Assembly: GCF_006345805.1 (NCBI RefSeq)
Contig: NC_043014.1
Span: 34,224,001 to 34,288,000, forward strand
Reading direction: 5' to 3'
Length of the DNA: 64,000 nucleotides
Source of the DNA: Octopus sinensis
Taxonomy: Eukaryota
In this document: in pieces, positions 37,601 to 58,600 of the stretch
How the letters are laid out: each line of letters starts with the position of its first letter
Position numbering within the stretch: the stretch's first letter is position 1
Made by a program: the position numbers

Positions 37601-40600
37601 AGTTTGGTTTCATGCCAGGCAGAATTGATGCTATATTTCTGGTAAGGCAACTGCAGGAAAAATATCTAGCTAAAGATAAGCCTCTGTACTTGGCTTTTAT
37701 TGGCTTGGAGAAAGCCTTTGATAGGGTCCCCTGATCCCTTATCTGGTGGTCAATGTGGAAACTGGGGATAGACGATTGCTTGGTAAGAGCTGTACAGGGA
37801 TGCTGTCAGTAAGGTAAGGGTTGACAACGAGTATAGTGAAGATTTCCGAGTAGAAGTAGGGGTTCACTAAGGACCGGCCCTCTTATTCATTATAGTCCTC
37901 CGGGCAATAACAGGAATTCAAGACAGGGTGCCCTTGGGGGCTCCTCTATGCTGATAACCTTGCTCTAATAGCCAAATCACTGCCAGAACTAGAGACAAAG
38001 TTTAGGGTGTGGAAGCAAGGTCTAGAATTGAAGGGCCTTAGGGTTAACGTAGCAAAAACTAAAGTCTTAGTAAGTAGGAACGCTGTCATATCACAAACCC
38101 ATTTCAGGTAGATGGCCCTGCTCGATCTATAGAAAAGGCGTGAGTAGAAAACTCCATACAATATACCCGGTATAAGCTATGGACACATAAAAGGTGCAGC
38201 AATATCAAAGAAGGTTAACCACGAAGATAGTTTTTGTGTGTGGCAGATGCATAGGGGCAATAAACACTGAAGATGTACAGAAAACACATTCCATCACATG
38301 CCAGTGGGAGAAACTAGAAGTAGTTAATAGCTTCTGCTACCATGGCGACCATGTCTGTTGTGGGGATGGTTGCTCTGAGAGTGTCACAGCTAGAATAAGA
38401 ATAGTCTGAGCAAAGTTCAAAGAGCTTCTATCTCTGCTGGCTACTAAGGACCTCTTGGTCAGGATGAAAGGTAGACCGTATGATGCATGTGGGCAAACTG
38501 CCATATTACACGGCAGTGAAACATAGGCCATGACTGCTGAGGACATGCGTATGCTTGAAAGAAATGAAGCAAGTATGATCCGCTGGATGCGTAATGTTAG
38601 TGTGCATACACGACAGTGTGTAAGGGCCCTGAGAGAAAAGTTGAGTATAAGAAGCATCAAATATGGTGTGCAAGAGAGATGACTGCACTGGTATGCTCAT
38701 GTGTTACGTATGTATGAGGACAGCTGTGTGAGGAAGTGCCACTCCCTAAATGTGGAAGAAATCTGTGGAAGAGGTAGACCCAGGAAGACATGGGATGAGG
38801 TGGTGAAGCATAACTTTCGAACATTAGGCCTCACAGAAGCAATGGCAGGATACCAAGACCTTTGGAGATATGCTGTGATTGAGAAGACCCGGCAACTATA
38901 GTGAGATTGCAGCCATGCATGTCCGACCCAGTTAAGAGTACCTCTGATGTGTCAGGTGATATGATATGCTTGAGAAGACCTGTTGAGTCATGTAAAACCA
39001 ATATCATAGCTGTGGCCAGTGGCCCTTGACTGGCACGTAAAAAACACCATCCAAACGTGGCTGATGCCAGTACCCCTGACTGGCCCCCATACCATGGCAC
39101 ATAAAAAGCACTATCCAAATGTGATTGATGTCAAGCCCACCTGACTGGCTCCTGTGCTGATGGCACATAAAAAGCACCCACTACACTCTAGGAGTGGTTG
39201 GCATTAGGAAGGGCATCCAGTTATAGAAGCATTACCAGATCAGATTGGAGCTTGGTGCAGCCACTGGGTTTCCAGACTTCAGTCAAACTGTCCAACCCAT
39301 ACCAGCATGGAAAATGGACGTTAAACGATGATGATTGCTCTTTTAGAATGAGAGAGAAATGGTGATTGAGAGTAATTATAATAAATGCCAGCTAACATGT
39401 TTTGTACAAGAAGTAATGTTGCTAGTTTTTGTTAGGTGCATCTGCTAATGCACAATGCATACGCAAACCAGCTATATATTGCGAAATAACAAATATTGCT
39501 ATAAGAACATCTTTCTCTTTCCATTTTGATAGCAACCACTCTTCGTCCCATGAACCCTTCAGTATTCTTATTACTCTGTCAAATGTAATGTTTGTTTATA
39601 TTGTTTTGAATTAATCATGCATTATCTTGTTTAAAGATTTCTTTGATGTGATTGTTTAGTTTTAGAATGACATCAAATGGTTGAGGTGGGAGGCCAGATC
39701 TAGCCAGATACAACACAAAACAGGTTAAATATTTTGGCCAGCTTGAATGCTAAAGGATTAAATCAATCTGTCTGAAATTTTGATTGCATGATTGTTAGTG
39801 CAGGATTTCAGCTGGAAACAGTTCCATCATAGTTTTATATAAGAACCTTTATATCCCAAACACTGTATTATAATATTTTAGTATATCACTCCAAATTCTT
39901 GATTATTTTGAAAATTGAGACATAAGCTATCTGTTCTGAGAAATAGTCACAGAAATGTTGTGTTACTTTTATATCAAGTCTGAATAAGTTTACATTGGTT
40001 TTTTCTTTCTGTAATTATCTAAGCAGTTTTACTGGGTCATTTATTTCACTGTTTTCTTTATTAAGAATATAGTATCTTCTTTCATTTATCGTAGACTTAA
40101 ATTTCTAAAATTTTATAATTTAAAACAATAAATTACATTAAAATACTAACCATAATTTTCATATTTTAATTTAAATTTAGTATTTTTAAAAATAATAATA
40201 TAGTTTTATGCACCATCCCTCACAAATACTATTTATATTGCTACTTACAGAGGCTTTCATGCAGTAGTGTTTGGCCTAGACGGTGAAATACTCCAGAAAC
40301 TAACAAGACTTGCACCACCTGTTGGCTTGAAACATCAACTTCCCCAGGATGGCTAACCCACTAGCAGATCTGGTCCTTCAACTTTGCAAGAGGAATCAGT
40401 ATTGCTCTTCAAAGTTCCAAGAACTCCAGCATAAAGAAGAATGGACTACATCAAATAAACAAGAGGTTCTTGCACTTCTAGCAGAATTATTCCTTCATCC
40501 AACATGTACTGAAGATGTAACATATTGTAGCAGTACAATTCTATTAGATTTGGTTGAGAGAGTAAAAAGCATGGTAGTGAGTAGTGAGAGCAGTCAGACC

Positions 40601-55600: not shown

Positions 55601-58600
55601 GCTCTTGTTGAGGGCGATGAGTCACAAGTACAGGATAATTCTATAGAAATACCTGGGTCAAAGATAGTAACAGAAGGCGCCAGCAGACCTCCTGAATCTT
55701 CAATACACACTGTGATCAAGTATTTGGACAAAGAGGATATTGTTGATATGGAAGAACTGAGGGCAGAGATTGAAGAACAATTGTCTATTTGGTCAGCCAA
55801 TCAGCATTATGGCAATGTAGTTGATTTTGAACGACAAGCTAGTGATTTATGGCAGATGTATGAGCAAATGACAAATGCTCTTGCACAGGAACTATGTGAA
55901 CAACTCCGCTTGGTTCTTGAGCCATCACAAGCTACAAAACTAAAGGGTGACTATCGAACTGGCAAACGAATTAACATGAAGAAAGTAATACCTTATATTG
56001 CCAGTCAGTTCCGTAAAGACAAAATCTGGTTGAGACGCACGAAACCAAGTAAACGTCAGTACCAAATTATGTTAGCAATTGATGATTCTTCCAGCATGAT
56101 AGACAACCATTCCAAGCAGCTTGCATTTGAGTCATTAGCAGTTATTGCTAATGGTTTGAGTCTTCTAGAAACTGGTGAACTTGCCATTTGTAGCTTTGGG
56201 GAAAGCATGCAAGTTATTCACTCGTTTGGTGAACAGTTCTCCTGCCATTCAGGAGCTCGACTCCTTCAGCATTTTACTTTCACACAAAAGAAGACAAATA
56301 TTGCTTTGCTCTTGCAGCAAGCTTCTGCATTAATGATGGAAAGCCGTCAGCATTACCGTTCTGCTCAATCGGGTCCTGATTTCTCTCAACTGTTGCTGAT
56401 AGTTTCTGATGGTAGAGGTCTTTTTTCAGAAGGCATGGACTATGTGAAATCTGCTGTGCGGCAAGCACAAACAGCTAATCTTTTTGTTGTGTTTGTTATA
56501 CTGGACAATCCGATAAACAGAGATTCCATCCTTGATATTAGGATTCCTGTTTTTAAGGCATCTGGCCAGTTGCCAGAGATCAAATCTTACATGGACCATT
56601 TTCCCTTCCCATTTTACATCATTCTGCGTGACATTGACTCTTTGCCACAGACTCTTAGTGAAGCTCTCCGGCAGTGGTTTGAACTGGTTACTGCAGAGAC
56701 ACAGTGAGGTGAAGTTTCTGTTGTTGTCACACAAATATAAAGACATATGGCAACATTGTTGCAAGATTTATAGAACTGTATTATTTGTGATTGGATTATT
56801 CTTTAAATCTTGCTATTCATGTTTTTTTGGTTCTTATTCATCTTTTTTTTTTTTATATATATATTTTGTGTCAATCAAGCAAAGCCAATAAAAGCTATTT
56901 TGCTTATTAATATTGACATTATCATTAGCTGCTAATATGTCATCATTTTGTATTCAGTCCTTTTCATTTTGTGCTCATCTTTGGCACTGTATTTCATCAA
57001 TGAATCATTAAAATATTTACAAAGTATTGTCTTTATGCTGGTATTTCTGTTTTATGACACTTATTTCTGTTTTGTTTCCCATCAGTATCAGAGAGGAGAG
57101 AACAAGCAAACATTTTTCGTCAACATGCAGTGATGTCAGCTTTTGACTGGTTTTGAAAATGCATGAGGTTTTCAGATTAGACTGCACTTTTAGATTGGGG
57201 AAAATATAGTTTTGACAATGTCAGACTAACAGTCTATAATCAAGGTTACTCATTATGTAGGAAACAATTTTTGATCGGTTGTGGTAAATTATGGAAATCA
57301 AATTTTAGGAGTATTTGCATCAGGTTCAGATGCAAATATACTAATTGCTGTAGTGTACATCAAAGGAGAAAAACCTTTTTTTTATGAGAATAGTGTGTTC
57401 AATGCGTTAGACTCATTGATGCAGAGAATTCAAGGACACCAGTGTTTCAACATGTGCCTTTTCAGCTAGAAGTACTATGCACCTTTGAGTCTAGCCAAGC
57501 AGCTGGCCTATATTTATACTTTCAAAGAAGAAAGTGTTTGCTGATCAGAGCTTATATCTCCCAACCAATTTAGAATTGTTATTTGCATATTCTTCATATA
57601 TCTAGGTAAGTTCAGACGCAAAATATGCTAGTTATTGCAGTGTATGTCAAAGGCAAAAAAATTTCCCTCTTCTGTGTTGGTAATGTGTTCCATACACACT
57701 CAACTGAATGGTGCAAAGGATTCTGGGACACTGGTGTTTTGCTGTGTCTCAGTAGCCAGAAATTTTAGAAGATGAAAGTGGAATTGTCTTCATATTTTAT
57801 ACCAAAAGAGTTTTGCTTATATGATATACCAATAGTTTATGTCACTTTGAGGAAATCTAACCAGTTCAGACAGTGCCTAGTTTCTTCAAATAATGAGCTT
57901 TGCTAGAAATGTTTTCTTAATTTTTGTGACACACCAGTATCATGATTTGAATACTCAAAATCTATTTACAGTATATTAATAGTTTCTGATGTTGCTGTTA
58001 CTTTACATTTTCATAATCCAAATTTATTAATTCATAGCTTGTTTAAATCTATATACATTTCTTTTAATTCTAATCATTTAAGAGTCTCTGTAATAGTAAC
58101 TAAACTCTTGATTAAGGTGGGAATGTGTTGTTTCATCCCTGGGCCATCTCTGATTGGGTGGACTCTGATGAAAGAGTGTTCTTACCACAACTATGACATT
58201 GTAGTTTTCAGACAGTACACTACACAATACTATGAATGTGTCCTTCATTTTTAATACAGCTTTGTGTACTATTTGTGGCAGTATGGTTAACCATGCAGAG
58301 CAGTATTGGATCCATCTGGTAAAATTTCACTTGCATTTAAATTTGAAATTATCTGCTGATGAAATCTGTAAAATCTCTGTAAAAATTACACCAAATTGTA
58401 CACTTGTTATTTTGTAAATTTGAAGATTATTTTCTCAGCATAGATTCACCCTCACAGGTTCTTGTGCACTTGGAATTTGTCCCCTCCACTAAAGTTTACC
58501 TACTTTACTCATACAAACACTCCTTGTTTTTGTTTTACATTTTGGTACAATAATAGAAATCTGGTAGCATTTCATGTCTCCTGCAAAAATTGAACCTCAT

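What the first reader, a model, noticed from the sequence alone, without database searches (positions are those of the whole stretch)
40251..56910. Midasin (MDN1) encoded by one intronless ~16.6-kb exon
Seen: a 16,359-bp open frame with six AAA rings, linker, D/E tether and MIDAS, with no introns, stops or TE insertions, in a window where the neighbouring USP10 is conventionally spliced and non-coding DNA is saturated with TEs. Established: human MDN1 has about 100 exons, and LINE-mediated retrocopies are usually far shorter because of 5' truncation. Inference: either an exceptionally long functional retrogene, or wholesale cDNA-mediated intron loss in situ that left only 5'UTR intron(s). Either needs near full-length reverse transcription of a >16-kb mRNA. 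The intact frame implies purifying selection.
Basis: partly seen in the sequence, partly recalled or inferred. Interest (0 to 1): 0.85.

Follow-up and report, generated by a model that had tools for sequence, protein, structure and literature searches.

The report
Octopus midasin gene without coding introns
An octopus carries its giant ribosome-assembly gene midasin (MDN1) as one unbroken 16.4-kb coding stretch, while its neighbour USP10 is spliced normally; this is most likely intron loss through a cDNA copy, but how and when it happened could not be settled here.

Summary
Observation confirmed. Window 40349..56707 (+) is one 16,359-bp ORF of 5452 aa. At the flanks' stop-codon frequency, the chance of it staying open is about 1e-144.

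It is a complete midasin:
- six Walker-A AAA modules, midasin lid domains, a Rea1-like linker, a D/E-rich stretch and a C-terminal VWA/MIDAS with DDSSS;
- both termini match the orthologues, and nothing intron-like is inserted;
- it is 97.5% identical to RefSeq midasin of Octopus bimaculoides, and sits in a cephalopod clade within the molluscs.

USP10 lies upstream on the other strand and has at least four coding exons in the window. None of the 40 interspersed-repeat copies or arms found falls inside the ORF.

The intron-free state looks derived. RefSeq isoforms in three bivalves differ by single internal 1–2-aa indels, so coding introns exist there.

No poly(A) remnant or target-site duplication remains. 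No second large copy was seen among predicted proteins.

Retrogene replacement and in-situ cDNA conversion cannot be told apart, and the 5'UTR intron is unproven. No eukaryotic genome or RNA data were available. This is a new member of a known kind, notable for its size.

The parts
40251..40348 (+). Putative 5'UTR part of the large exon. It is preceded by ttacag (AG at 40249-40250) and by a TATA-like TATTTATA at 40230-40237. It holds a 2-codon uORF (ATG CAG TAG, 40259-40267). The context around the main ATG is caggATGg.
   Evidence: Read directly. Whether 40251 is a splice acceptor or the transcript starts nearby is not decided; there are no RNA data.
40349..56707 (+). Uninterrupted MDN1/midasin coding sequence: 5452 codons plus stop.
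   Evidence: A single tblastn HSP of O. bimaculoides midasin aa 1-5454 covers 40349-56704 at 97.5% identity with 2 gap positions.
41279..46549 (+). Hexameric AAA+ ring region, from the first to the sixth Walker A motif (aa 311-2067).
   Evidence: Pfam AAA_5 (7 stretches), AAA_lid_7, AAA_lid_5, MDN1_4th. Walker A motifs at aa 311, 650, 1054, 1362, 1745, 2060.
47549..53848 (+). Linker region (about aa 2401-4500); least conserved outside cephalopods.
   Evidence: phmmer match of the C-terminal half to the yeast Rea1 linker construct 6hyd_A, E 8e-46. Identity to non-cephalopods is 0.17-0.44 per 300-aa window. Pfam has no model hit here.
53849..55648 (+). D/E-rich region (aa 4501-5100).
   Evidence: At least 35% D+E per 100 aa in 9 of the 12 windows starting at aa 4501-5051. 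Strong GC and AT skew at 54-56 kb. It accounts for the long antisense ORFs at 53868-54936.
56066..56509 (+). C-terminal VWA/MIDAS domain (aa 5240-5387), with the MIDAS motif DDSSS at aa 5245.
   Evidence: Pfam VWA E 4.2e-5, 24.3 bits against a cutoff of 23.8. Matches to Rea1/Mdn1 MIDAS structures 6qt8_A and 6qta_A and to full-length chains. Motif found.
56708..56910 (+). Short 3'UTR with AATAAA at 56887-56892; no genomic A-run follows it.
   Evidence: The first A-run of 6 or more after the stop is at 57655.
46..1506 (-). Large coding exon of the neighbouring USP10 (context or control gene), bounded by ttacag| and |gtaagt.
   Evidence: The 400-aa query from within this exon (47..1246) is 96% identical to 'ubiquitin carboxyl-terminal hydrolase 10-A [Octopus bimaculoides]'.
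1591..1624 (-). USP10 mini-exon (34 nt), separated from the large exon by an 84-nt intron (1590..1507).
   Evidence: Splice sites read. A 28-aa gap in the tblastn alignment of P0261 sits exactly there.
2330..2440 (-). USP10 coding exon (aa 49-85 of the O. bimaculoides protein), carrying the sequence YSFGDFSG.
   Evidence: tblastn, 97% identity. That FGDF is the G3BP-binding motif of USP10 is recalled, not tested.
13256..13402 (-). USP10 first coding exon of the O. bimaculoides model (aa 1-49). USP10 and MDN1 are therefore divergently oriented, about 27 kb apart.
   Evidence: tblastn, 98% identity.

Best explanation
This is the octopus's working, and apparently only, MDN1/Rea1 orthologue. MDN1 is the giant AAA+ remodelling ATPase of 60S ribosome assembly. 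The whole 5452-codon reading frame lies in one exon. Compared with other molluscs, whose MDN1 has coding introns, the intron-free state is derived. It most likely arose through a reverse-transcribed copy of the spliced mRNA. Either the cDNA was inserted at a new site and the multi-exon parent was later lost (retrogene replacement), or the cDNA recombined with the resident gene (in-situ intron loss). The event is old enough that insertion scars are gone, and the gene has been kept under purifying selection since.

Shown: identity, completeness, lack of coding introns and TEs, orthology, and introns in bivalve coding regions.

Inferred: the cDNA route, the age, single-copy status in the genome, and any 5'UTR intron.
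For: - The ORF is intact, with a chance probability of about 1e-144.
- The full midasin architecture is present and all six AAA-module Walker A motifs and the MIDAS motif are intact.
- Met1 and the C-terminus coincide with O. bimaculoides, Argonauta hians and an unnamed ENA sequence.
- No lineage-specific insertion of 6 aa or more exists relative to other cephalopods.
- Conservation tracks the functional domains: identity to non-cephalopods is 0.53-0.73 in the AAA ring, 0.64-0.74 in the MIDAS region and 0.17-0.44 in the linker.
- In a tree of 21 of the 1046 hits, the sequence sits in a cephalopod clade (SH-aLRT 100) inside the molluscs.
- Only one cluster per cephalopod lineage appears among the 120 full-length hits listed, and no large cephalopod fragment appears among the 120 shorter hits listed.
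- RefSeq isoforms from one locus differ by a single internal indel: 1 aa in Mytilus (two different sites), 2 aa in Ostrea, 1 aa in Mercenaria. That implies tandem splice sites inside their coding sequence.
- USP10 in the same window has introns of 84 nt, about 0.7 kb and about 10.8 kb, so this genome splices its genes normally.
- Reverse-transcriptase-bearing elements are present in the window (RVT_1 fragments).
- Orphan retrogenes and retrogene replacement are documented elsewhere (PMC5470649, passages read; PMC5803294, abstract seen).
Against: - No poly(A) remnant is present. The longest direct repeat shared between the two flanks is a 10-mer, and 122 of 200 shuffles reach that length. Nothing directly marks a cDNA origin.
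- Exon structures of MDN1 in other octopods, squids, Nautilus or any other mollusc could not be read. No eukaryotic genome collection was available.
- The isoform evidence shows only one or two junctions per bivalve, all in the D/E-rich region. Ancestral intron number is therefore unknown, and an intron-poor ancestor is not excluded.
- The cephalopod stem branch is long (0.79 changes per column). This fits either deep divergence or a burst of change, and decides nothing.
- The search for a second copy covered predicted proteins only. The 'shorter' search listed hits of 1622 bits or more, so small fragments or unannotated pseudogenes would be missed.
Confidence: 0.6

Rival explanations
1. Retrogene replacement specifically. 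A full-length MDN1 mRNA of about 16.6 kb was reverse-transcribed by a LINE enzyme and inserted near USP10. It gained a promoter, possibly with a new 5' exon, and the multi-exon parent was later lost.
For: - The coding region is completely intron-free, in one piece and full length.
- The UTRs are short.
- LINE reverse-transcriptase fragments are present in the window.
- No second large copy appears among predicted proteins.
- Orphan retrogenes are a documented class (PMC5470649; PMC5803294).
Against: - There is no poly(A) tail remnant and no target-site duplication above chance. An old event would have lost them.
- Target-primed reverse transcription usually truncates copies at the 5' end (PMC5470649), so a 16.6-kb full-length copy would be exceptional.
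Confidence: 0.3
2. In-situ intron loss. One or several cDNAs of the spliced mRNA recombined with the resident gene and erased all coding introns, leaving at most an intron in the 5'UTR.
For: - The coding sequence is exactly collinear with orthologues, as precise intron deletion predicts.
- A possible acceptor at 40249-40250 upstream of the ATG would fit a retained 5'-most intron.
- No insertion scars are present.
Against: - The 5'UTR intron is unproven. A TATA-like box at 40230-40237 offers a start site of the gene's own.
- Removing every one of many introns this way also needs cDNA reaching the 5' end, or many separate events.
- No synteny data are available.
Confidence: 0.3
3. Gradual or ancestral intron poverty. 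MDN1 already had few introns in the molluscan or cephalopod ancestor, and the last ones were lost one at a time by small cDNA conversions or genomic deletions. No long reverse transcription was needed.
For: - The isoform test shows only one or two coding junctions per bivalve, all near aa 4680-4774.
- From recall, not tested here: yeast MDN1 has no introns and fly Mdn1 has few, so the gene tolerates intron loss.
Against: - Mytilus annotations from another assembly split the gene over at least three contigs. One 2045-aa piece (6.1 kb of coding sequence) lies on a 35.4-kb contig, so it may span much non-coding DNA.
- Isoforms with alternative 5' or 3' ends exist in Mytilus, Ostrea and Biomphalaria.
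- The neighbouring octopus gene keeps its introns.
Confidence: 0.15
4. Non-functional or artefactual. It is either a young retrocopy beside an intact multi-exon parent elsewhere, or cDNA wrongly built into the assembly.
For: Intronless copies of multi-exon genes are usually retropseudogenes (general knowledge; PMC5470649).
Against: - There are 5452 codons without a stop, while the other frames carry 219-570 stops.
- It is 97.5% identical to the RefSeq midasin of O. bimaculoides, 84.9% to Argonauta and about 68% to two further cephalopod sequences, all full length.
- No poly(A) is present.
- The sequence runs without N into TE-bearing flanks on both sides.
- The gene body is CpG-depleted (observed/expected 0.36), like the USP10 exon (0.21). 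This is consistent with long residence in the genome.
Confidence: 0.04

Closest known systems
MDN1 / Rea1 (midasin), the AAA+ ATPase of 60S pre-ribosome maturation (yeast Rea1, S. pombe Mdn1, human MDN1)
   Same: The architecture and length class are the same: N-terminal region, six AAA+ modules, linker, D/E-rich region and C-terminal MIDAS/VWA. The sequence groups with mollusc midasins in the tree.
   Different: Nothing differs in the protein. The gene structure differs: it has no coding introns, whereas three bivalve orthologues show splice junctions inside the coding sequence. The human gene is recalled to have about 100 exons, which was not verified here.
Orphan retrogenes / retrogene replacement (e.g. 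amphioxus SYCP1, PMC5803294; 25 human orphan retrogenes cited in PMC5470649)
   Same: It is a single-exon functional gene that appears to be the only copy of an otherwise multi-exon gene.
   Different: At about 16.6 kb it is far longer than my recollection of typical retrocopies; no length survey was read. No poly(A) or target-site duplication is present and relocation is not shown. Membership is therefore unproven.
Reverse-transcriptase-mediated intron loss by cDNA recombination with the resident gene (Mourier and Jeffares 2003, cited in PMC5470649; the model itself is recalled)
   Same: All coding introns are precisely absent, and a 5'-most intron is possibly kept.
   Different: The scale differs, since every coding intron of a 16.4-kb coding sequence is gone. 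The retained 5' intron and the unchanged locus are both untested.

Membership tests
MDN1/Rea1 (midasin) | Six tandem AAA+ modules in one polypeptide, with midasin-type lid domains | tested here: met
   Pfam AAA_5 E 4e-129 in 7 stretches; AAA_lid_7, AAA_lid_5, MDN1_4th. Six Walker A motifs in the AAA region.
MDN1/Rea1 (midasin) | Long linker, then a D/E-rich region, then a C-terminal MIDAS (VWA) domain with DxSxS | tested here: met
   PDB sequence matches to Rea1/Mdn1 chains at about E 1e-116, including linker and MIDAS constructs. VWA is above the Pfam cutoff. D/E is at least 35% over most of aa 4501-5100, with DDSSS at aa 5245.
MDN1/Rea1 (midasin) | Orthology: groups with midasins of related animals, full length | tested here: met
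   97.5% identity to O. bimaculoides midasin XP_014789895.1. Cephalopod clade inside the molluscs, SH-aLRT 100 (21 of 1046 hits used).
MDN1/Rea1 (midasin) | ATP-driven removal of assembly factors from pre-60S particles | not testable with these tools
   Function is inferred from homology only.
LINE-mediated processed retrogene | Lacks the introns of the parental gene | tested here: inconclusive
   The coding sequence has no introns. The parental structure is known only indirectly, from 1-2 junctions per bivalve.
LINE-mediated processed retrogene | Poly(A) remnant at the 3' end | tested here: not met
   A content is 0.10-0.30 in 30-nt windows after AATAAA. The first A-run of 6 or more lies 947 nt past the stop.
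LINE-mediated processed retrogene | Flanking target-site duplications | tested here: not met
   The longest shared direct word between the flanks is 10 nt, and 122 of 200 shuffles reach 10 or more. Old insertions lose these marks.
LINE-mediated processed retrogene | Sits at a locus different from the parental one | not testable with these tools
   No eukaryotic genome collection was available. The only linkage datum is that O. bimaculoides USP10-A and midasin are reported on contigs of the same length, 47,890,971 bp.
In-situ RT-mediated intron loss | Precise intron removal with the reading frame collinear to orthologues | tested here: met
   No insertion of 6 aa or more relative to cephalopods, and no stretch of 12 aa or more unique relative to 8 non-cephalopods.
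In-situ RT-mediated intron loss | 5'-most intron(s) retained (3'-to-5' polarity) | tested here: inconclusive
   An AG at 40249-40250 could be an acceptor, but TATTTATA at 40230-40237 allows a start site of the gene's own. No RNA data.
In-situ RT-mediated intron loss | Gene neighbourhood unchanged relative to outgroups with introns | not testable with these tools
   No outgroup genomic loci were accessible.

The most novel reading that the evidence does not exclude
The octopod, perhaps coleoid-wide, MDN1 is an orphan retrogene. A full-length retrocopy of about 16.6 kb replaced a many-exon parent. To my recollection that would be the longest functional retrogene described, though I ran no search for retrogene length records. 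It would also show that a reverse transcriptase in the cephalopod germ line could copy more than 16 kb of mRNA in one pass.
Probability: 0.3. Interest if true: 0.7.

Novelty: new member of a known kind. Interest (0 to 1): 0.5.

Why it matters
MDN1 is one of the largest conserved eukaryotic genes. From recall, it is split into about a hundred exons in vertebrates. Finding its 16.4-kb reading frame in one exon, in a genome with long introns and many transposons, gives an extreme and easily dated test case for cDNA-mediated intron loss or retrogene replacement. It bears on how long a cDNA the germ-line reverse transcriptases can make. It also bears on whether very long, highly constrained housekeeping genes gain from shedding introns in repeat-rich genomes. 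In practice, a single 16.4-kb exon is a convenient marker for assembly quality and for cephalopod phylogeny.

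Tried and rejected
- Literature. Five full-text searches found no report of an intronless cephalopod MDN1: 'midasin'+'intronless' (1 irrelevant paper), 'cephalopod'+'retrogene' (16 papers), 'midasin'+'exons'+'genomic analysis' (8 papers), 'octopus'+'intron loss' (13 papers) and 'MDN1'+'single exon' (2 papers). Passages checked in PMC6408891, PMC12049793 and PMC9068888 held nothing relevant. Garbarino and Gibbons 2002 (PMC117441), which would document the human exon count, is not held; its reference was seen only in PMC5099923.
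- Retroposition scars. The search for target-site duplications and a poly(A) remnant was negative.
- Second copy. The 'near' and 'shorter' protein searches showed no extra cephalopod midasin. This was limited to predicted proteins and, for the shorter search, to hits of 1622 bits or more.
- Logan relatives. The cluster of P0004 lies on contigs of 16,696-18,238 bp. These may be transcripts or repeat-bounded genomic contigs, so they say nothing about introns. The unnamed ENA protein P0003 (5460 aa, on a 474-kb contig) is likewise uninformative.
- Old O. bimaculoides split models P0122 and P0123 map to aa 1-2315 and 2554-5452. They are not informative about introns.
- USP10 identity. Pfam found nothing in the large exon. 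The representative search gave only two hits, one of them a UCH-domain protein. The PDB has no USP10 chain to discriminate. The name came from the O. bimaculoides orthologue.
- 5' exon. The CpG profile shows undepleted blocks at about 9.4-13.2 kb and 24.6-31.4 kb, but no MDN1 5' exon could be assigned.
- Not run: structure prediction, fold search, complex prediction and the protein atlas. The family assignment was not in doubt.

Full report
**1.

The ORF listing finds a single ORF at 40349..56707 on the + strand: 5452 codons, 16,359 bp with the stop. Read from stop to stop, the frame opens at 40331, so the first ATG lies only six codons after the upstream stop. The window contains no N.

The reading frame has no stop, while the other five frames of the same span have 219 to 570. 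The next longest stop-free stretch anywhere in the window is 546 codons. At the stop frequency of the flanks (0.059), the chance of 5452 open codons is about 1e-144. Codon-position GC is 0.51, 0.34 and 0.33.

**2. It is a complete midasin**

- Pfam on the first 2700 residues gives AAA_5 (E 4e-129, seven stretches), the midasin lid domains AAA_lid_7 and AAA_lid_5, and MDN1_4th.
- Six Walker A motifs lie at residues 311, 650, 1054, 1362, 1745 and 2060. The same pattern also matches once at residue 4784, inside the D/E-rich region.
- The second half has no Pfam hit at 1e-3. It does match the yeast Rea1 and fission-yeast Mdn1 chains of the PDB at about E 1e-116, including linker and MIDAS constructs.
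- The last 319 residues reach Pfam's VWA cutoff.
- D+E is at least 35% per 100 residues across most of 4501-5100, and the MIDAS motif reads DDSSS at residue 5245.

**3. The frame is pure coding sequence with native ends**

The word-indexed protein search returned 1046 hits at E 1e-10 or better among 1047 candidates, of which 120 were listed.

| Sequence | Length (aa) | Identity to the window protein |
|---|---|---|
| Window's own cluster, containing RefSeq midasin of Octopus bimaculoides (XP_014789895.1) | 5454 | 97.5% |
| Argonauta hians midasin-like | 5500 | 84.9% |
| Unnamed ENA protein P0003 | 5460 | 68.6% |
| Unnamed Logan cluster P0004 | 5478 | 68.1% |
| Other molluscs | - | 41.5-45.1% |

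In a 13-sequence MAFFT alignment, the Met at 40349 aligns with Met1 of O. bimaculoides, Argonauta and P0003. All sequences end at the same C-terminal residues.

The only octopus-specific insertion of five or more residues relative to the other cephalopods is five residues long. No stretch of 12 or more residues is missing from all eight non-cephalopods. There is thus no in-frame intron-like insert.

O. bimaculoides midasin maps onto the window as one tblastn HSP, aa 1-5454 to nt 40349-56704.

A maximum-likelihood tree of 21 of the hits was built by the quick method, with SH-aLRT support only; I chose the rows to span the phyla. It places the window in a cephalopod clade (support 100, stem length 0.79) inside the molluscs.

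Conservation follows function. Identity to non-cephalopods is 0.53-0.73 in the AAA ring and 0.64-0.74 at the MIDAS end, against 0.17-0.44 in the linker. Together with the open frame, this supports purifying selection. dN/dS could not be computed because no orthologous nucleotide sequence was available.

**4. Context**

*Repeats.* repeat finder reports 10 direct-repeat families (28 copies) and 6 inverted pairs (12 arms). None of these lies within 40349-56707. Reverse-transcriptase fragments occur at 37276-37734 and 21416-22126. 'Saturated with TEs' is supported qualitatively only.

*The neighbour.* A 400-residue query from the large minus-strand ORF at the window's left end is 96% identical, over its full length, to 'ubiquitin carboxyl-terminal hydrolase 10-A [Octopus bimaculoides]' (975 aa). 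Mapping that protein onto the window gives four coding exons on the minus strand:
- 13402..13256
- 2440..2330
- 1624..1591
- 1506..46

They have canonical AG and GT borders and introns of about 10.8 kb, about 0.7 kb and 84 nt. The rest of USP10 lies beyond the window. USP10 and MDN1 are thus divergently oriented, about 27 kb apart, and the neighbour is spliced in the ordinary way.

*CpG.* The MDN1 body is CpG-depleted (observed/expected 0.36), as is the USP10 exon (0.21). Undepleted blocks lie at about 9.4-13.2 kb and 24.6-31.4 kb.

**5. Is the intron-free state derived?**

I could not read any other eukaryotic genome, so the direct test was not possible. An indirect test was.

RefSeq isoforms annotated on one contig must differ by splicing. 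Each of these pairs is identical except for a single internal indel:
- Mytilus galloprovincialis X1 vs X2: one residue, at 4680.
- Mytilus galloprovincialis X1 vs X3: one residue, at 4720.
- Ostrea edulis X1 vs X2: two residues, at 4773-4774.
- Mercenaria mercenaria X1 vs X2: one residue, at 4749.

Mytilus X4, Ostrea X3 and Biomphalaria X2 have alternative ends.

Coding introns therefore exist in the three bivalves, and MDN1 is not intronless across molluscs. The test shows only one or two junctions per species. It does not give the ancestral intron number, so an intron-poor ancestor remains possible.

**6. Retrogene or in-situ loss?**

The hallmarks of LINE-mediated retroposition are a poly(A) remnant and target-site duplications (PMC5470649, passages read). 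Neither is present:
- After AATAAA at 56887-56892 the sequence is not A-rich, and the first A-run of six or more lies 947 nt past the stop.
- The longest direct word shared by the two flanks is 10 nt, which 122 of 200 shuffles equal or exceed.

This is what an ancient event would leave, so it excludes only a recent retrocopy.

No second large midasin of a cephalopod appears among the listed full-length or shorter predicted proteins. The shorter search listed only hits of 1622 bits or more, and unannotated relics would not be seen.

However, TATTTATA at 40230-40237 could equally be a TATA box for a start site near 40260. The '5'UTR intron' is therefore an open inference. It would not separate the two routes in any case, since retrogenes often recruit upstream exons; that last point is recalled.

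Stepwise loss or internal priming would relax it.

**7. Comparison with what is known**

The protein is an ordinary member of the MDN1/Rea1 family. The gene structure belongs to a known kind of event: cDNA-mediated intron loss, or orphan-retrogene replacement. Examples are amphioxus SYCP1 (PMC5803294, abstract seen) and the 25 human orphan retrogenes cited in PMC5470649.

What is unusual is the size, in a genome that otherwise keeps long introns. Five full-text searches found no paper describing an intronless cephalopod MDN1. The protein itself is already in RefSeq.

**8. What stayed unchecked**

- Exon structure and synteny in any other species.
- A genomic search for a second copy.
- Transcript ends and expression.
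- Long-read support for the assembly.
- dN/dS.
- Supplementary tables of cephalopod genome papers (closed).

**Verdict**

This is a functional, apparently sole MDN1 orthologue with a derived intron-free coding region, most likely made through cDNA. The route and the date are undecided. It is a new member of a known kind, of moderate interest.

Noticed in passing
window 30403..30679 (+): Candidate 7SK snRNA gene. Rfam RF00100 scores 46.2 bits against a gathering score of 35, E 5.7e-9, over the full model 1-331. TATTTATA lies about 32-39 nt upstream, and a run of seven T follows at about 30685-30691, as in Pol III type-3 genes. It sits inside the CpG-undepleted block at 24.6-31.4 kb.
   Followed up: partly
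window about 9.4-13.2 kb and about 24.6-31.4 kb: Two blocks where CpG is not depleted (observed/expected 1.0-1.6, against a window median of 0.31). The first adjoins the first coding exon of USP10. The second lies between USP10 and MDN1 and might hold the MDN1 promoter or 5' exon, but nothing could be assigned.
   Followed up: partly
window 7310-7508, 15587-15798, 21021-21227, 39145-39338, 62260-62363: A short interspersed repeat family of about 200 nt, present in both orientations at five places (families D2, D7 and I1-I4). One copy ends about 0.9 kb upstream of the MDN1 exon. It was not classified.
   Followed up: no
window 21884-22295 and 59292-59677: Two copies, 90-93% identical, of the 3' part of a reverse-transcriptase-bearing element (families D6, D8 and D9; RVT_1 and DUF6451 hits). 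One lies on each side of MDN1, about 37.4 kb apart, in the same orientation.
   Followed up: no
window 9422-9844: A tandem array of a 156-nt unit, 2.8 copies (family D3), inside USP10 intron 1. It is CpG-rich.
   Followed up: no
window 40259-40267 (+): A two-codon upstream ORF (ATG CAG TAG) lies 82 nt before the MDN1 start codon, which itself has A at -3 and G at +4.
   Followed up: no
window 53868-54936 (-): Antisense ORFs of 250 and 156 aa lie opposite the D/E-rich region. They follow from GA-rich codons having no stops in the reverse frames (skews) and are not evidence of genes.
   Followed up: yes
window 2330-2440 (-): This USP10 exon encodes YSFGDFSG. I recall FGDF as the G3BP-binding motif of USP10, which would fit the USP10 assignment. 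It was not tested.
   Followed up: no
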